In this document: positions 18,296 through 27,599 of the stretch, one piece after another
How the letters are laid out: each line of letters starts with the position of its first letter
Numbering within the stretch: position 1 is the stretch's first letter
Made by a program: the position numbers and the translations under genes
IMG/VR virus record: IMGVR_UViG_2645727901_000008
Strand: one strand, 5' to 3'
Source: a virus
Lineage: Duplodnaviria; Heunggongvirae; Uroviricota; Caudoviricetes
Length of the DNA stretch: 64,000 nucleotides
Notes under the pieces: generated by a model
What the model was told of the DNA's origin: nothing
The model's database searches: none
Seen by the model: the letters and a program-made list of their open reading frames with translations, nothing else

Positions 18296-18754
18296 ATGAG
18301 CCACGTTAACCCATCAAAAACACAATATCGCTTAATGCTGGCGATCGCGTCAGCTATACCAACCAGCCTGAATCCCCCGGCAGGCTATCCCGCTGTTGTT
18401 GATGATTGTTTTCAGTATTACGGAGAAGACATCCTGAGCCAGTCCAAAGCGCTCAAGCAGTTATGTAAGGCAGGTATTCTTCACTGTATCGGAGATCCGG
18501 ACGATTTTGTTGTTATGCTGGCGGATCGTGACTCTTTTCTACTGTCCTGGAAAGCCGGTGCGCGCGAAGCACGTTTGGGGAATGGTATTGGTTACATAGA
18601 CTATAGTGATTGTCCGCTGGCATTTGCTGGTGGATATATGCATTGGCATGAGCGAAATAGAGGCCGTCAGCGTCAGTATCGCTTGAGTGACTTTAACGTC
18701 TGTCACGGTTTCGAAGAAGCTGACAGCCAGGACATCTGGCTTCAGGAGCCTTGA
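18296..18754 (+). CDS. Hypothetical protein
   Basis: 152-aa ORF with RBS. Confidence 0.5.
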   Translation: MSHVNPSKTQYRLMLAIASAIPTSLNPPAGYPAVVDDCFQYYGEDILSQSKALKQLCKAGILHCIGDPDDFVVMLADRDSFLLSWKAGAREARLGNGIGYIDYSDCPLAFAGGYMHWHERNRGRQRQYRLSDFNVCHGFEEADSQDIWLQEP

Positions 18755-19074
18755 TCCCCCTTCCCTTCCCAAATCTCCCTGTTTCTTTGGTTATTCAGTG
18801 CGTTTCGTTGGTTGCATTCGTCGATCGTGCTGAATAACTGTTCAGCGTATGTCGGATACTTGTTTAACAGCACTGGCGTGTCCTCTGGCACTAAACAAGG
18901 GGAGTAATCAATCAGATTTGCCTGCGGCTTGCTGGTGGCTTCTACGGTAATTTTCACTGGCACGCTGGTTGATGGCTTTTGCCCGTTCCCGCTGCATCCT
19001 GATAACGTCATCAGGCACACGCACATCGTTAATCCCAGCACGGCGTAACGCATTTTCAAGGCGAGTGATTTCAT
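18742..19074 (-). CDS. Putative o-spanin (Rz1-like outer-membrane lipoprotein)
   Basis: N-terminal signal peptide with lipobox-like LSGC; ORF overlaps the 3' end of the i-spanin candidate in another frame. Confidence 0.5.
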   Translation of the reverse strand: MKSLALKMRYAVLGLTMCVCLMTLSGCSGNGQKPSTSVPVKITVEATSKPQANLIDYSPCLVPEDTPVLLNKYPTYAEQLFSTIDECNQRNALNNQRNREIWEGKGDQGS

Positions 19075-19381
19075 TCTGGCTTTCCTCTCGTTGTTTGATT
19101 AGGTTGGCATTCAGTTCTGCTGTTTTGCGCTGGTACTCCTTTTCCAGTGCTTTAATTCTTTCGTTTTCGGTCAGCATGGCTGAGCGAGCGTTCTCACTTA
19201 ACTGTAATGCGGTAGAAAGCGTGTTGTTCGTGCTTTCCAGTTGTGATTTTGAGTCTTCAAGCGATCGGACATACCTGATGTGTTCGATAACTGCCGTCGT
19301 TGTTCGGTAAATTCCAGAAATGGCTAAAAGCGCAATTACAATCAAAATTATCTTTTTCAAAACCATCCTCTCCAGGTTCAT
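18908..19381 (-). CDS. Putative i-spanin (Rz-like)
   Basis: N-terminal TM helix (KKIILIVIALLAISGIY) followed by a long charged coiled-coil region. Confidence 0.55.
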   Translation of the reverse strand: MNLERMVLKKIILIVIALLAISGIYRTTTAVIEHIRYVRSLEDSKSQLESTNNTLSTALQLSENARSAMLTENERIKALEKEYQRKTAELNANLIKQREESQNEITRLENALRRAGINDVRVPDDVIRMQRERAKAINQRASENYRRSHQQAAGKSD

Positions 19382-19436
19382 TTTTGGTGTTAAACATGTA
19401 CCAATTTACATCCTTTTGTGTGCCTAAGTGGTGTTT

Positions 19437-20243
19437 CTATGGTTCCTTTTTGGTGTTCTTTTGGAGCGCATCGATAACGCCTTGTGGCATGATTAAACTG
19501 ATTGCCGGACTCATTACTGCATCATCCAGTAGAGAACCAGTTAACGTGATGGCGACAGCGTTCTCTAAACCTCTGGTTGCCTGAGTGGTTGACGTTTTAA
19601 TGCGACCTGTAAGGGCTACGACACCCTCACTTGCTGAGTTAATTTCGGAGAGTAAAACTTCGGCGGCTGTCACTGCTTCCCGTAAAGCATCAATTTCATC
19701 CTGAGTAATGACTGGAGCCTGAGCGCCCCCAGCACCACCCTGTCCACCATTGCTTTCACCACCACCAGCACTTCCGGTAGCTTCAATTTTTGCGTTAATG
19801 GCGTTCATGGCGGTTTTCAGAGCATCAAGTTTTAGCGCCGTCAATGCGTCCGTCAGAGATTGCGGAATGGAAACATTCCCCATTCCCTCAACAAGGGCGA
19901 AAGCAGGTATGGGGGTCAGCTCGTTACCTTTTGCGTAGCATTCCCAGCCAATCTTCATCTGTAACAGCTCTGATGGTTTGGTGTATGGGGAAAGAGAATC
20001 AGCCAGTAATGAAGACGCTTTGCTGGCCTCATTGAGCTGTTCAGAAAAGCCAAGCAATTGAGTAGTCCAGGCCGAAACAGAATCAGGATAGGTTTTATCG
20101 GCGTGAACTATTCCCTGTATGGCGCTGGCGAGCGATGAGGCTTTTACAGAAGCTGCCCGGCTTATGGTTATAGATTCTGGTGTAGAGATACCGGCATCTG
20201 ACAGAATTTTGAAGGCTTTAACTTCACCTATTGAATCAAGCAT
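19437..20243 (-). CDS. Hypothetical protein coupled to the PAAR-like gene
   Basis: Probable start MLDSIGEVKAF at 20243, overlapping the PAAR stop (TAATG); Gly-rich linker GGGESNGGQGGAGGAQ. Confidence 0.5.
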   Translation of the reverse strand: MLDSIGEVKAFKILSDAGISTPESITISRAASVKASSLASAIQGIVHADKTYPDSVSAWTTQLLGFSEQLNEASKASSLLADSLSPYTKPSELLQMKIGWECYAKGNELTPIPAFALVEGMGNVSIPQSLTDALTALKLDALKTAMNAINAKIEATGSAGGGESNGGQGGAGGAQAPVITQDEIDALREAVTAAEVLLSEINSASEGVVALTGRIKTSTTQATRGLENAVAITLTGSLLDDAVMSPAISLIMPQGVIDALQKNTKKEP

Positions 20244-20527
20244 TATGCAACCTGAAAAATATCCTCGCCGTTGGCGATAACAGAACCACAAGAAAGCGGA
20301 TCGCCTACACAGACAACTCCCTTTCCACCTATCGAAAACCATACTCGCGTCGATACAGCTGCCCCTGGATGTGCACTGTTACCGTCAGTGTGACTGGGAA
20401 ACATGGCACCATCTACAACAACTGGCTTACCGTTAACGGTGAACCAGGGAACGGTTTCAGCTACCAGTCGCGGCGGAAATCCTCCGTGACCAGAACAAAG
20501 GGTGTCGCTGGTGGCTATTGCGCTCAT
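20243..20527 (-). CDS. PAAR-like spike-tip protein
   Basis: 94 aa with three PAAR-like elements (CSGHGG, NGKPVVVDG...H, GGKGVVCVGDPLSCGS). Confidence 0.55.
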   Translation of the reverse strand: MSAIATSDTLCSGHGGFPPRLVAETVPWFTVNGKPVVVDGAMFPSHTDGNSAHPGAAVSTRVWFSIGGKGVVCVGDPLSCGSVIANGEDIFQVA

Positions 20528-20599
20528 TCTTCACCTCCTGGTTATCCTCCTATTGTCATCACTTTGTTATTTCGTCATTCAAACGGAGAGTTAAATTTC

Positions 20600-23021: not shown

Positions 23022-23298
23022 ACGTCGAGAACCAGCTAAAGCGCCTAAGGCTACTGATCCGGAACTTGAGCGAAGAATTGAAGAGTTCGCCAGCAAAGCG
23101 GATTTAATCCCGGATGAAATTACAACGGGGAAGGTGCTTGATAAAGATGCGCCGCGCGACTTTAAATCCATACGCGTGAGCTTTAATGAATATGAGTACG
23201 GGGTGCTCGATGCGTTAAGCAAAAAGCTTAACCGCAGCAAATTGAACCTGATTCGACATGCCATCCTCATGCTTGCTGAGTCAGAGGATGCTAAATGA
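23014..23298 (+). CDS. Small DNA-binding partition partner (ParG/RHH-like)
   Basis: 94-aa ORF overlapping parA stop; basic N-terminus and RHH-like C-terminus. Confidence 0.55.
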   Translation: MIKRREPAKAPKATDPELERRIEEFASKADLIPDEITTGKVLDKDAPRDFKSIRVSFNEYEYGVLDALSKKLNRSKLNLIRHAILMLAESEDAK

Positions 23299-23418
23299 TA
23301 CCGATTTGATGCCTTATTGGCGTCTATCGTGTACCAGTGCAATAATGTGTCAAAGTGGTGCCATAATGGTGTTAATATACAGCCATATTGATATCAAATT
23401 GACACTGTATCGGCATCA

Positions 23419-23442
23419 AAAAGCCCCAGGCGGGGCTTTTTC
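23419..23442 (+). terminator. Rho-independent terminator (gccccaggcggggc + TTTTT)
   Basis: Hairpin flanked by A-tract and T-tract after the parA operon. Confidence 0.7.
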
Positions 23443-25968: not shown

Positions 25969-26622
25969 CTATCCCTTCTTGAAATCAAAGTTGCTTGCGA
26001 TGGCCTGGAAGGTGCCTCCAGCCTTGAAATCAATATTTTCGTCGGCTGTCACAGTAATGTTTTTGCCATTAACGCTGATGTTATCGGCTGATTTGACGTT
26101 AACACTCCCTCCCGCATTCACTACTACATCAGCCGGACCAATGATGTATATCTGCCCTGATTCATTCATTCCAATCCTTGAGCCTGCTGCCGTATTCGCT
26201 ATTTCATATCCACCGCCAGCCGTTCGCACTTCGAGCACATTGTTGCGGTGAATCACGAAATCTTTTGTCGCCGAAAATTGCGGGCGGGGAGGCGCTCCGT
26301 CTACTTCTGGTGGCGTCCAGCCGCTACCATTGCCTGACGCCTCCGGCGCGACGTTTGGTACTCCTCCAGGCGCATCCTGAGCTGCGCCAACTATCATTGG
26401 GCGTCTGGTATCAATTCGACCATTAACATCCAGATAAGGAAACTCTACCCATACCAGGTCGCCTTTTACTGTAGGTACAAACGCGTTACCTATGGGTAAC
26501 AGGTATTCTGCCCAGGGTAGATCGTCATCAGGAACGCCATTCCAGTCTGGTAAAACACGGACCTGAGCACGCATAAGCCCTGCCGGGTGCACAGTTCCAA
26601 CAATTTGCGCTCTACGCTTCAT
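25969..26622 (-). CDS. Baseplate central spike (gpV-like)
   Basis: 217-aa ORF with C-terminal Gly/Asn/Val-rich short repeats typical of spike beta-helices. Confidence 0.6.
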   Translation of the reverse strand: MKRRAQIVGTVHPAGLMRAQVRVLPDWNGVPDDDLPWAEYLLPIGNAFVPTVKGDLVWVEFPYLDVNGRIDTRRPMIVGAAQDAPGGVPNVAPEASGNGSGWTPPEVDGAPPRPQFSATKDFVIHRNNVLEVRTAGGGYEIANTAAGSRIGMNESGQIYIIGPADVVVNAGGSVNVKSADNISVNGKNITVTADENIDFKAGGTFQAIASNFDFKKG

Positions 26623-27599
26623 TTGTTCGGCACTCCTAATATCATTCGTGTTGTGTAGCCTACGCGGTCTTCAAAGTGCGCAACATTTTTTACTATCAGC
26701 TTGCGGGGCATTGATTCATCAATGCGGTTTTCCTGGTCATAGCGGTATACGATAATCTCTATTACCATTCCCGGTTTTATATCCGGATTGCCTGCGACTT
26801 CTATATCCATTTTGGGGACGAGAGACAGCTGCATATTGCGAAGAGTTTCCATATCAGAATCGGATATATAACGCACTGGGAGTGAGCTATCGCCATATTC
26901 GACGTAGCCATCGGTCATGGAATACCCAACAAAACGATATTGATTCTTTGCTGTTGTCGCATGTTCCTGTTGGAGTAGGCGCATTTTGGACAAAGTGTAT
27001 TCTGCTTTAGGGTTATTCCCCTCGTAGGTAAATGATGGCGTTTGCTTCATCAGATCAGCCAGGGTGTAAAAGTTAAATTCCCCACGGCATACCCAACATA
27101 ATGCACCTTTGTCTCGCGCTATCTGCGAGAGCATTTTTGACGGTTTGTCACCGGCATTCAGATGATATGTAACTGCGCGTTTTAGCACGCTGCTGGTAAT
27201 TTTAAGCTTGCCGGAATATGCCTTGAATATAGCGTCTGGTGTTTTGTTGGTATGTAAATTTGTGCGCGGGGAGGGGATCTTAAACCTGCGCACGTCTTCA
27301 CTGACAGCAATAACGGTAACAACATCACCAGCCAGCATTGCAGACGTAACAAAGAAGTCTGTTTTAAAAGTGCCTGCATTACCGTTTGGATCGCCCATTT
27401 CAGCCACCAGCGATGCACCGTATTTGGCTTTCCAGTCATCAATTACGGTGCCGGTAGCGTCATGAATTTCCAGTTTTAGCAAAGGGGCTTTGAGGCTGGT
27501 TTTTTCTACATATACTGCGGTAAAAATCCAGTCTCGTGGCACTTTGTTATCGTTAATGAGCACTGACTGTAGAAAATATTGTTGTAACTCCTGGGCCAC
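26619..27599 (-). CDS. Putative baseplate/tail protein
   Basis: 326-aa ORF coupled (4-nt overlap) to the spike gene. Confidence 0.45.
   Translation of the reverse strand: MAQELQQYFLQSVLINDNKVPRDWIFTAVYVEKTSLKAPLLKLEIHDATGTVIDDWKAKYGASLVAEMGDPNGNAGTFKTDFFVTSAMLAGDVVTVIAVSEDVRRFKIPSPRTNLHTNKTPDAIFKAYSGKLKITSSVLKRAVTYHLNAGDKPSKMLSQIARDKGALCWVCRGEFNFYTLADLMKQTPSFTYEGNNPKAEYTLSKMRLLQQEHATTAKNQYRFVGYSMTDGYVEYGDSSLPVRYISDSDMETLRNMQLSLVPKMDIEVAGNPDIKPGMVIEIIVYRYDQENRIDESMPRKLIVKNVAHFEDRVGYTTRMILGVPNK

What the first reader, a model, noticed from the sequence alone, without database searches (positions are those of the whole stretch)
19437..20527. PAAR-like gene coupled to a Gly-rich 269-aa protein, away from the baseplate spike cluster
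A PAAR-like ORF (20243..20527) overlaps the start of the downstream ORF (TAATG), which has a Gly-rich linker. The pair sits between the spanin genes and parMR, about 5.5 kb from the gpV-like spike (25969..26622). A PAAR tip with a coupled partner could be a tip-associated accessory or effector protein.
Basis: inference. Interest (0 to 1): 0.45.

Follow-up and report, generated by a model that had tools for sequence, protein, structure and literature searches.

The report
Phage spike tip and its partner
These two coupled genes of a D6-like (P1-related) E. coli plasmid prophage encode the small cap that sharpens the tail spike and a helical protein that sits on that cap; both are counterparts of phage P1 UpfC and UpfB, placed at the tail tip by cryo-EM in 2026, so the finding is correct but already known.

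Summary
A 94-aa PAAR ORF (20243..20527, minus strand) ends in TAATG. The pair lies between the spanin genes and parMR, 5.4 kb from the gp5-like spike gene.

The window is about 98.8% identical to phage D6, whose record already calls these genes "similar to P1 upfC" and "upfB". The PAAR protein matches the solved P1 UpfC spike tip (PDB 9vyi, E 1.4e-35). The partner is a full-length homologue of UpfB (hhalign 99.9%, E 6e-33). A 2026 cryo-EM paper places UpfB as a "tripod" on the UpfC tip.

New here:
- The PAAR gene lies directly upstream of the partner in all 34 D6/P1-like loci read.
- In two distant relatives the order is hub, spike, PAAR, partner with no gaps. The separation in D6 and P1 is therefore inserted cargo.
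- The partner is under purifying selection (dN/dS about 0.2) but evolves faster than PAAR, spike or hub (0.03-0.07).
- It is an acidic, all-helical protein with no membrane segment and no toxin domain.

"Tip-associated accessory" is supported by homology. "Effector" is not. What the tripod does remains open. Novelty: already known. Interest: low.

The parts
20243..20527 (-). PAAR / gp5.4-like spike-tip protein, 94 aa (orthologue of P1 UpfC and D6 orf57)
   Evidence: Pfam PAAR_motif 27.2 bits against cut-off 27. PHROG 281 E 8e-29. PDB 9vyi_A UpfC E 1.4e-35, T4 gp5.4 5iv5 E 1.4e-5, PAAR 4jiv E 0.017. 57% identical to P7 UpfC. H14, H46, H53 and C80 are invariant in 19 distinct homologues. dN/dS 0.04-0.05.
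20534..20539 (-). Shine-Dalgarno sequence AGGAGG, 6 nt upstream of the PAAR ATG
   Evidence: Read directly from the sequence.
19437..20243 (-). UpfB-like all-helical partner, 268 aa (the 'tripod' protein of P1; D6 orf56). Its start overlaps the PAAR stop by 1 nt (TAATG).
   Evidence: PHROG 1559 E 4.9e-110. hhalign against P7 UpfB: 99.9%, E 6e-33, 259 columns. tblastn against P1/P7/SJ46 UpfB: about 27% identity over 98% of the length. AF2 model: pLDDT 86, pTM 0.77, all alpha. dN/dS 0.16-0.26. The PAAR gene lies directly upstream in all 34 D6/P1-like loci.
19722..19775 (-). Gly-rich low-complexity linker of the partner (residues 157-174). It is predicted disordered and varies in length and composition among homologues.
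   Evidence: pLDDT below 50 for residues 159-173. 66% gaps in alignment columns 161-170. The linker is Gly/Ser-rich in P1 and P7 and Pro/Ala-rich in others. Alleles 94-97% identical are 260-269 aa long.
25969..26622 (-). gp5-like trimeric tail spike without a lysozyme domain (P1 gene 5 homologue). This is the structure the PAAR protein is inferred to cap.
   Evidence: PHROG 430 E 7.5e-42. D6 annotation 'similar to P1 gene 5'. 32% identical to the spike gene that directly precedes PAAR in L006.
26619..27599 (-). gp6-like baseplate hub (P1 gene 6 homologue), directly upstream of the spike gene
   Evidence: PHROG 1390 E 2.6e-144. D6 annotation. 30% identical to the L006 gene preceding the spike.
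18742..19381 (-). Context: i-spanin (18908..19381) and overlapping o-spanin (18742..19074). They are co-oriented and lie 55 nt downstream of the partner, probably in the same transcript.
   Evidence: PHROG Rz-like spanin hits. The terminator scan gave two weak hits inside the PAAR coding sequence and none between the partner and the spanins, no more than chance. The same order occurs in P1/P7: upfC, upfB, ppfA, mlp.

Best explanation

The 94-aa PAAR protein is a single-copy cone. It caps the blunt end of the trimeric gp5-like beta-helical spike (25969..26622) and sharpens it, as T4 gp5.4 and P1 UpfC do. It is probably stabilised by a metal site made of the invariant H14, H46, H53 and C80.

The 268-aa partner is translated by termination-reinitiation at TAATG. 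It is an acidic, soluble, elongated helical-bundle protein with a floppy Gly-rich linker. It attaches to the faces of the PAAR cone and forms the three-legged 'tripod' seen below the P1 spike.

The tripod would therefore be the first part of the tail to meet the outer membrane on sheath contraction. It most likely assists or tunes envelope penetration, or protects and positions the tip. It is not required for plaque formation under laboratory conditions.

Shown here: gene structure, homology, conserved linkage, selection and fold class. Shown by others for P1: the position of UpfC at atomic resolution, and of UpfB at medium resolution by fitting an AlphaFold3 model. Inferred: the same placement in the D6-like phage, the metal site, translational coupling, and any role in penetration.
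For: - The window is 98.8% identical to phage D6 across the pair. The D6 record calls the genes similar to P1 upfC and upfB.
- PAAR: 9vyi_A UpfC E 1.4e-35, T4 gp5.4 E 1.4e-5, Pfam and PHROG hits, and invariant His3-Cys.
- Partner: hhalign 99.9%, E 6e-33, full length against P7 UpfB, and PHROG 1559 E 4.9e-110.
- P1 literature: UpfC is the spike tip by HHpred (PMC9024508) and by cryo-EM (PMC12810830; bioRxiv 10.1101/2025.07.21.665459). UpfB is a tripod anchored on the tip. PMC13611949 modelled an UpfB-UpfC complex independently with AlphaFold3.
- Linkage: the PAAR gene is directly upstream in all 34 loci. The order hub, spike, PAAR, partner is contiguous in the distant relatives L006 and L038.
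- The family is small and has one architecture: 77 representatives in 1.84 billion proteins, with the full-length members 240-265 aa and the rest shorter fragments.
- Purifying selection on the partner, dN/dS 0.16-0.26.
- AF2 model all alpha, pLDDT 86. No membrane segment, pI 4.65.
Against: - UpfB is not mentioned in the main text of the P1 virion LC-MS/MS study. That text includes Table 1, but only the passages matching the search terms were read, not the table itself.
- The cryo-EM assignment of UpfB rests on a medium-resolution map and an AlphaFold3 fit, with no built atomic model.
- Copy number is disputed: three trimers (PMC12810830) or three copies (PMC13611949).
- upfB and upfC are dispensable for P1 plaque formation. 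For upfC this comes from the deletion mutant. For both it comes from CRISPRi. A DeltaupfB strain is listed in the PMC9024508 supplement, but its result was not read.
- Nothing was measured on D6 itself.
Confidence: 0.78

Rival explanations
1. The partner is not a virion component. It is a cytoplasmic assembly chaperone or adaptor that loads or folds the PAAR cap onto the spike and is then released, like the Eag/DUF1795 or DUF4123 adaptors of type VI secretion PAAR and VgrG cargo.
For: - Tight coupling to the PAAR gene.
- UpfB is not mentioned in the main text of the P1 virion proteome paper.
- The P1 tripod assignment relies on a medium-resolution map and an AlphaFold3 fit.
- The gene is non-essential.
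Against: - Extra three-legged density is present below UpfC in P1 virions, and the predicted UpfB structure fits it.
- UpfC, gp5 and gp26 were also missed by the same LC-MS/MS although they are in the virion, so absence there is weak evidence.
- There is no sequence or fold match to the known T6SS adaptor families.
Confidence: 0.12
2. The partner is a PAAR-loaded effector. It is delivered into the host periplasm or cytoplasm on tail contraction to damage or reprogramme the cell, analogous to T6SS PAAR-associated toxins.
For: - Its position on the tip would deliver it first.
- It evolves faster than the other tail proteins.
Against: - No enzymatic or toxin domain in Pfam.
- No immunity gene, since the downstream genes are spanins.
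- No hydrophobic segment: the highest 19-residue Kyte-Doolittle mean is 1.39.
- A single uniform architecture with no domain swapping, unlike effector families.
Confidence: 0.05
3. The partner belongs to the lysis cassette as a regulator or accessory of the spanins, and sits next to the PAAR gene only by operon history.
For: - It is co-oriented with and immediately upstream of the spanin genes in D6, P1 and P7.
- Lysis genes also follow it in L006.
Against: - In L038 no gene with a recognisable lysis domain follows it, and in L039 and L040 the next genes encode large proteins. None of these downstream genes was examined further.
- A PAAR gene lies within 1.6 kb upstream in every locus read.
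- It has no signal peptide or membrane segment.
- The P1 density assignment places it at the tail tip.
Confidence: 0.03

Closest known systems
Phage P1 UpfC (PDB 9vyi; baseplate 9VZK) and T4 gp5.4, the PAAR-repeat spike-tip proteins
   Same: The length is 94 aa, as in P1 and P7 UpfC. Identity to P1/P7 UpfC is 56-57%, and the protein is clearly homologous to T4 gp5.4. It is a single domain with no extension. The His3-Cys pattern is conserved. A gp5-like spike lacking the lysozyme domain is encoded in the same genome.
   Different: Its position on the D6-like virion has not been seen directly. The gene lies 5.4 kb from the spike gene. In T4 and in distant relatives such as L006 and L038 it lies within the spike cluster.
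Phage P1 UpfB 'tripod' (PMC12810830), PHROG 1559
   Same: Full-length homology. Same length class and same position directly after the PAAR gene and before the spanins. Same all-helical architecture with a low-complexity linker at the same place.
   Different: Only about 27% identical to P1 UpfB, against 56-57% for the PAAR protein. The linker is Gly-rich here, Ser/Gly-rich in P1 and Pro/Ala-rich in other lineages. In P1 and P7 the two genes are separated by 8 nt rather than overlapping.
T4 gp5.1, a proposed gp5.4-binding protein (AlphaFold3 model in PMC13611949)
   Same: A small protein encoded beside the PAAR gene and proposed to bind a lateral face of the PAAR pyramid.
   Different: I found no homology to it. 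The proposal rests on a model only and gp5.1 has not been seen in T4 reconstructions. I did not compare the two proteins directly.
T6SS PAAR proteins with cargo effectors and adaptors (for example VCA0105-type PAAR, PDB 4jiv)
   Same: A PAAR cone on a trimeric beta-helical spike that serves as a platform for an additional protein (4jiv E 0.017).
   Different: The partner has no toxin domain, no immunity partner and no adaptor-family match. It is a structural appendage of a phage tail rather than a secreted toxin.

Membership tests
PAAR / gp5.4-like spike-tip proteins (Pfam PF05488, PHROG 281) | Match to the PAAR_motif profile above the curated cut-off | tested here: met
   27.2 bits against a cut-off of 27.0, E 4.5e-6, which is marginal. 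PHROG 281 at E 8.4e-29.
PAAR / gp5.4-like spike-tip proteins (Pfam PF05488, PHROG 281) | Sequence homology to structurally solved spike tips | tested here: met
   9vyi_A P1 UpfC E 1.4e-35. 5iv5/4ku0 T4 gp5.4 E 1.4e-5 and 2.7e-5. 4jiv PAAR E 0.017.
PAAR / gp5.4-like spike-tip proteins (Pfam PF05488, PHROG 281) | Conserved metal-binding residues near the cone apex. The three-His-plus-one-Cys site of PAAR proteins is taken from my own knowledge of Shneider et al. 2013. | tested here: inconclusive
   H14, H46, H53 and C80 are invariant in 19 distinct homologues, including one only 33% identical. Their role as metal ligands is inferred and was not tested.
PAAR / gp5.4-like spike-tip proteins (Pfam PF05488, PHROG 281) | A cognate trimeric beta-helical spike (gp5, gpV or VgrG type) encoded by the same element | tested here: met
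   25969..26622, PHROG 430 E 7.5e-42. P1 gene 5 homologue.
PAAR / gp5.4-like spike-tip proteins (Pfam PF05488, PHROG 281) | Physical location as a single copy on the spike tip in the virion | not testable with these tools
   Shown for the P1 orthologue only.
UpfB-like tripod proteins (PHROG 1559) | Full-length homology to P1/P7 UpfB | tested here: met
   hhalign 99.9%, E 6e-33, 259 aligned columns. tblastn about 27% identity over 98% of the length. PHROG 1559 E 4.9e-110.
UpfB-like tripod proteins (PHROG 1559) | Encoded immediately downstream of, or within the same cluster as, a PAAR gene | tested here: met
   Directly adjacent in all 34 D6/P1-like loci and in L006 and L038. Separated by four small ORFs, about 1.5 kb, in L039 and L040.
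UpfB-like tripod proteins (PHROG 1559) | All-alpha elongated fold with a flexible internal linker | tested here: met
   AF2 model with pLDDT 86 and pTM 0.77, ten helices, residues 159-173 disordered.
UpfB-like tripod proteins (PHROG 1559) | Oligomer bound to the PAAR cone at the tail tip | not testable with these tools
For P1 there is a medium-resolution density and an AlphaFold3 fit. Copy number is disputed.
T6SS-type PAAR-associated effector or adaptor | A recognisable toxin or enzymatic domain, or an adaptor family (DUF4123, DUF1795, DUF2169), in the partner | tested here: not met
T6SS-type PAAR-associated effector or adaptor | An adjacent immunity gene | tested here: not met
   The downstream genes are the i- and o-spanins.
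DUF7217 (Pfam PF23854; proteins of Ackermannviridae and Arnovirus phages) | Profile match to, or profile-profile homology with, a DUF7217 member | tested here: not met
   Foldseek against BFVD gave probability 1.00 but E only 1e-3 and TM 0.45-0.57. No Pfam hit. hhalign against CBA120 orf171, a bona fide DUF7217 protein, gave probability 0.4%. No gene annotated as PAAR lies beside orf171.

The most novel reading that the evidence does not exclude
The tripod partner is more than passive decoration. It may be the first-contact, fast-evolving module of the puncturing device. It could sense or engage the outer-membrane surface, or transiently remodel the envelope as the spike strikes. That would tune penetration efficiency or host range under conditions that laboratory plaque assays miss. 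If so, P1/D6-like phages carry an exchangeable adaptor on the PAAR cone, functionally parallel to T6SS PAAR cargo.

Three observations are compatible with this reading. The partner diverges much faster than its PAAR protein (59% against 89%, and 38% against 75% identity in the same loci). It is nevertheless under purifying selection (dN/dS about 0.2). Its linkage to the PAAR gene is strictly conserved.
Probability: 0.15. Interest if true: 0.6.

Novelty: already known. Interest (0 to 1): 0.2.

Why it matters
The result confirms that a tool-free reading correctly picked out a spike-tip cap and its attached accessory from raw sequence. The biology is already recorded. D6 was annotated against P1 upfC and upfB in 2018, UpfC was predicted to be the spike tip in 2022, and both proteins were placed in the P1 baseplate in 2026.

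[quoted passage not shown] It is dispensable for plaque formation, and published copy numbers disagree (3 or 9). This work adds three things to that question:
- The PAAR-partner linkage holds across the whole family, about 77 clusters at 50% identity.
- The ancestral gene order is hub, spike, PAAR, partner.
- The partner evolves about four times faster than the other tip proteins.

D6-like plasmid prophages are common in E. coli and Salmonella. More than 100 PLSDB plasmids carry this region, so allele-swap experiments would be easy to source.

Tried and rejected
1. DUF7217 lead. Foldseek against BFVD put DUF7217 proteins of phages Wc4, vB_SmaA_3M and FEC14 on top. I located the CBA120 member, orf171. 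hhalign to the UpfB family gave 0.4% probability, and no gene annotated as PAAR lies beside it. I rejected the match as generic helical similarity.

2. Complex prediction.

4. Sequence search of the partner against the PDB matched only the Gly-rich linker to artificial GGGGS linkers.

5. Promoter and terminator scan: no more sites than chance. An operator-like 16-mer upstream of the PAAR gene is not significantly repeated in the window. The P1 and P7 records annotate no late promoter upstream of upfC, so the timing of expression is not established.

6. The search for related loci with the broad alignment A3 failed because no stretch was conserved enough. A2 worked.

7. tblastn of a distant family member (P0104) against the phage collection found nothing. 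The distant branches are known only from metagenomes.

8. The Lobocka 2004 P1 genome paper is not held in the library.

9. No PAAR-partner fusion protein exists among the 77 family representatives.

Full report
**Observation.**
- A 94-aa ORF runs from ATG 20527 to TAA 20245-20243 on the minus strand. An AGGAGG lies 6 nt upstream.
- The last A of the stop is the first base of the next ATG (20243-20241). That ATG opens an ORF ending at 19437.
- Residues 157-174 read GSAGGGESNGGQGGAGGA (19722-19775).
- Downstream lie an Rz-like i-spanin and an overlapping lipoprotein o-spanin (18742-19381).
- Upstream and divergent lie parM and parR.
- The gp5-like spike gene is at 25969..26622 (PHROG 430, E 7.5e-42), 5442 bp away on the same strand. 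The gp6-like hub gene directly precedes it (PHROG 1390, E 2.6e-144).

**What the element is.** The region is 98.8% identical to Escherichia phage D6, a P1-related plasmid prophage. More than 100 plasmids of E. coli, Salmonella and Shigella carry it. The D6 record already labels the two genes "similar to P1 gene upfC" (PAAR) and "similar to P1 gene upfB".

**The PAAR protein.**
- It passes the Pfam PAAR_motif cut-off narrowly (27.2 against 27.0 bits) and matches PHROG 281 at E 8e-29.
- It matches the solved P1 spike-tip chain 9vyi_A (UpfC) at E 1.4e-35, T4 gp5.4 at E 1.4e-5 and a T6SS-type PAAR (4jiv) at E 0.017.
- It is 57% identical to P7 UpfC.
- Across 19 distinct homologues, including one only 33% identical, H14, H46, H53 and C80 are invariant. 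That fits the three-His-plus-one-Cys metal site known for PAAR proteins. This last point rests on my own knowledge and was not tested.

**The partner.**
- It has no Pfam family but matches PHROG 1559 (unknown function) at E 4.9e-110.
- tblastn finds UpfB of P1, P7, SJ46 and relatives at about 27% identity over the full length.
- A profile of 26 relatives aligns to P7 UpfB over 259 columns with 99.9% probability, E 6e-33.
- An exhaustive profile search of 1.84 billion cluster representatives finds only 77 proteins. The full-length ones are 240-265 aa with the same architecture, and the rest are shorter fragments. There are no fusions; the single long hit is a low-complexity artefact.
- The AlphaFold2 model is confident (pLDDT 86, pTM 0.77). 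It is entirely helical, with ten helices including one of 58 residues. Only the Gly-rich linker (159-173) and the last four residues are disordered.
- The linker is the most indel-rich part of the family and changes composition between lineages: Gly-rich, Ser/Gly-rich or Pro/Ala-rich.
- The protein is acidic (pI 4.65) and has no membrane-spanning segment.
- Fold searches return only generic helical bundles.

**Literature.**
- UpfC was predicted to be the gp5.4-like tip in 2022, and its deletion did not affect plaque formation (PMC9024508).
- Two cryo-EM studies place UpfC on the gp5 needle (10.1101/2025.07.21.665459; PMC12810830).
[quoted passage not shown] This was seen only at medium resolution and fitted with an AlphaFold3 model. 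[quoted passage not shown]
- PMC13611949 models the tripod as three UpfB copies on UpfC, calls its role unclear, and draws a parallel with T4 gp5.1.
- CRISPRi scores both upfB and upfC as non-essential (PMC10695390).
- UpfB does not appear in the main text of the P1 virion proteome paper. UpfC, gp5 and gp26 were also missed there.

- In all 34 D6/P1-like loci read, the PAAR gene lies immediately upstream of the partner and the i-spanin follows. The set comprises D6, P7, 29 IMG/VR loci and 3 other metagenome loci.
- In two distant relatives, L006 and L038, the order hub, spike, PAAR, partner is contiguous. In L006 the tail genes are 30-50% identical to and collinear with the window.
- In two further lineages four small ORFs, about 1.5 kb, separate PAAR from the partner.
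- In D6-like elements the spike-to-PAAR interval varies from 3.4 to 7.3 kb while strand and order are kept. In this window it holds hrdC, two methyltransferase ORFs, a parA-like gene and parMR.
It does not indicate a separate function.

**Selection.** Against relatives at moderate synonymous divergence (L019, L020, L021), the partner has dN/dS 0.16-0.19, and 0.16-0.26 when two closer relatives are included. PAAR, spike and hub are at 0.03-0.07. At the protein level the partner is always the most diverged tail component. Examples are 59% against 89% for PAAR, and 38% against 75%. It is a functional gene that evolves quickly.

**Mechanism.** The best-supported reading is a one-copy PAAR cap on the spike carrying a helical tripod made of the partner. 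The two are made in coupled fashion from one transcript that probably continues into the spanins.
- Directly supported for this window: gene structure, homology, linkage, selection and fold class.
- Transferred from P1: the position in the virion.
- Inferred: any role in penetration.

Rivals are ranked lower:
- Assembly chaperone (0.12). UpfB is absent from the main text of the P1 virion proteome paper and its density assignment is only a fit, which favours this. Against it, the tip density exists and other real virion proteins were also missed by the proteomics.
- Injected effector (0.05). No toxin domain, immunity gene or membrane segment supports it.
- Lysis accessory (0.03). The partner always lies near a PAAR gene, but lysis genes follow it only in some loci.

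**Comparison and verdict.** The pair belongs to the UpfC/gp5.4 PAAR tip family and the UpfB (PHROG 1559) family. Every defining feature that can be tested by sequence was met. It is not a T6SS-type effector pair and not DUF7217. Novelty: already known. Interest is low (0.2). The remaining value lies in the unresolved function and copy number of the tripod.

Noticed in passing
window 23298-23442 (compare L001 13880-15541): The window lacks the glutaminyl-tRNA synthetase gene (glnS) that D6 and many D6-like plasmids carry between orf61 and dmt. This accounts for most of the difference in spike-to-PAAR distance, 5.4 kb here against 7.3 kb in D6. Both variants occur in PLSDB.
   Followed up: partly
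window 25969-26622: The spike gene is mosaic relative to D6. Residues 1-87 are identical, and 17 substitutions fall in residues 88-209, the beta-helix part. dS is 0.66, while the flanking hub (dS 0.04) and the PAAR gene (dS 0) are nearly identical. This suggests a recombination breakpoint inside the spike gene.
   Followed up: partly
window 19722-19775: The GGT-rich DNA encoding the partner's linker is length-polymorphic. Alleles 94-97% identical are 260-269 aa long, which is consistent with slippage in a tolerant linker.
   Followed up: no
window 18742-20527; L006 5707-8188: The tip genes are followed directly by lysis genes in D6, P1 and P7 (spanins). In the distant relative L006 a GH108 endolysin and small membrane-type proteins follow. 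The tip-gene/lysis-gene junction therefore appears old.
   Followed up: partly
L038 6899-8278: An IS605 OrfB/TnpB (Cas12f-like) gene lies 1.1 kb downstream of the partner gene in a distant metagenomic relative.
   Followed up: no
L039 3168-5765 and L040 3394-5753: In one distant lineage four small ORFs of unknown function (58-168 aa) are inserted between the PAAR gene and the partner gene. In L040 the PAAR gene is called as only 58 aa.
   Followed up: no
L041 45169-45897 (phage CBA120 orf171): The DUF7217 protein of CBA120 also matches the C-terminal half of PHROG 289, 'GTP-binding domain'. It lies beside the gp3 tail-completion gene. It is the closest predicted viral fold to the partner but shows no detectable sequence relationship to it.
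   Followed up: yes
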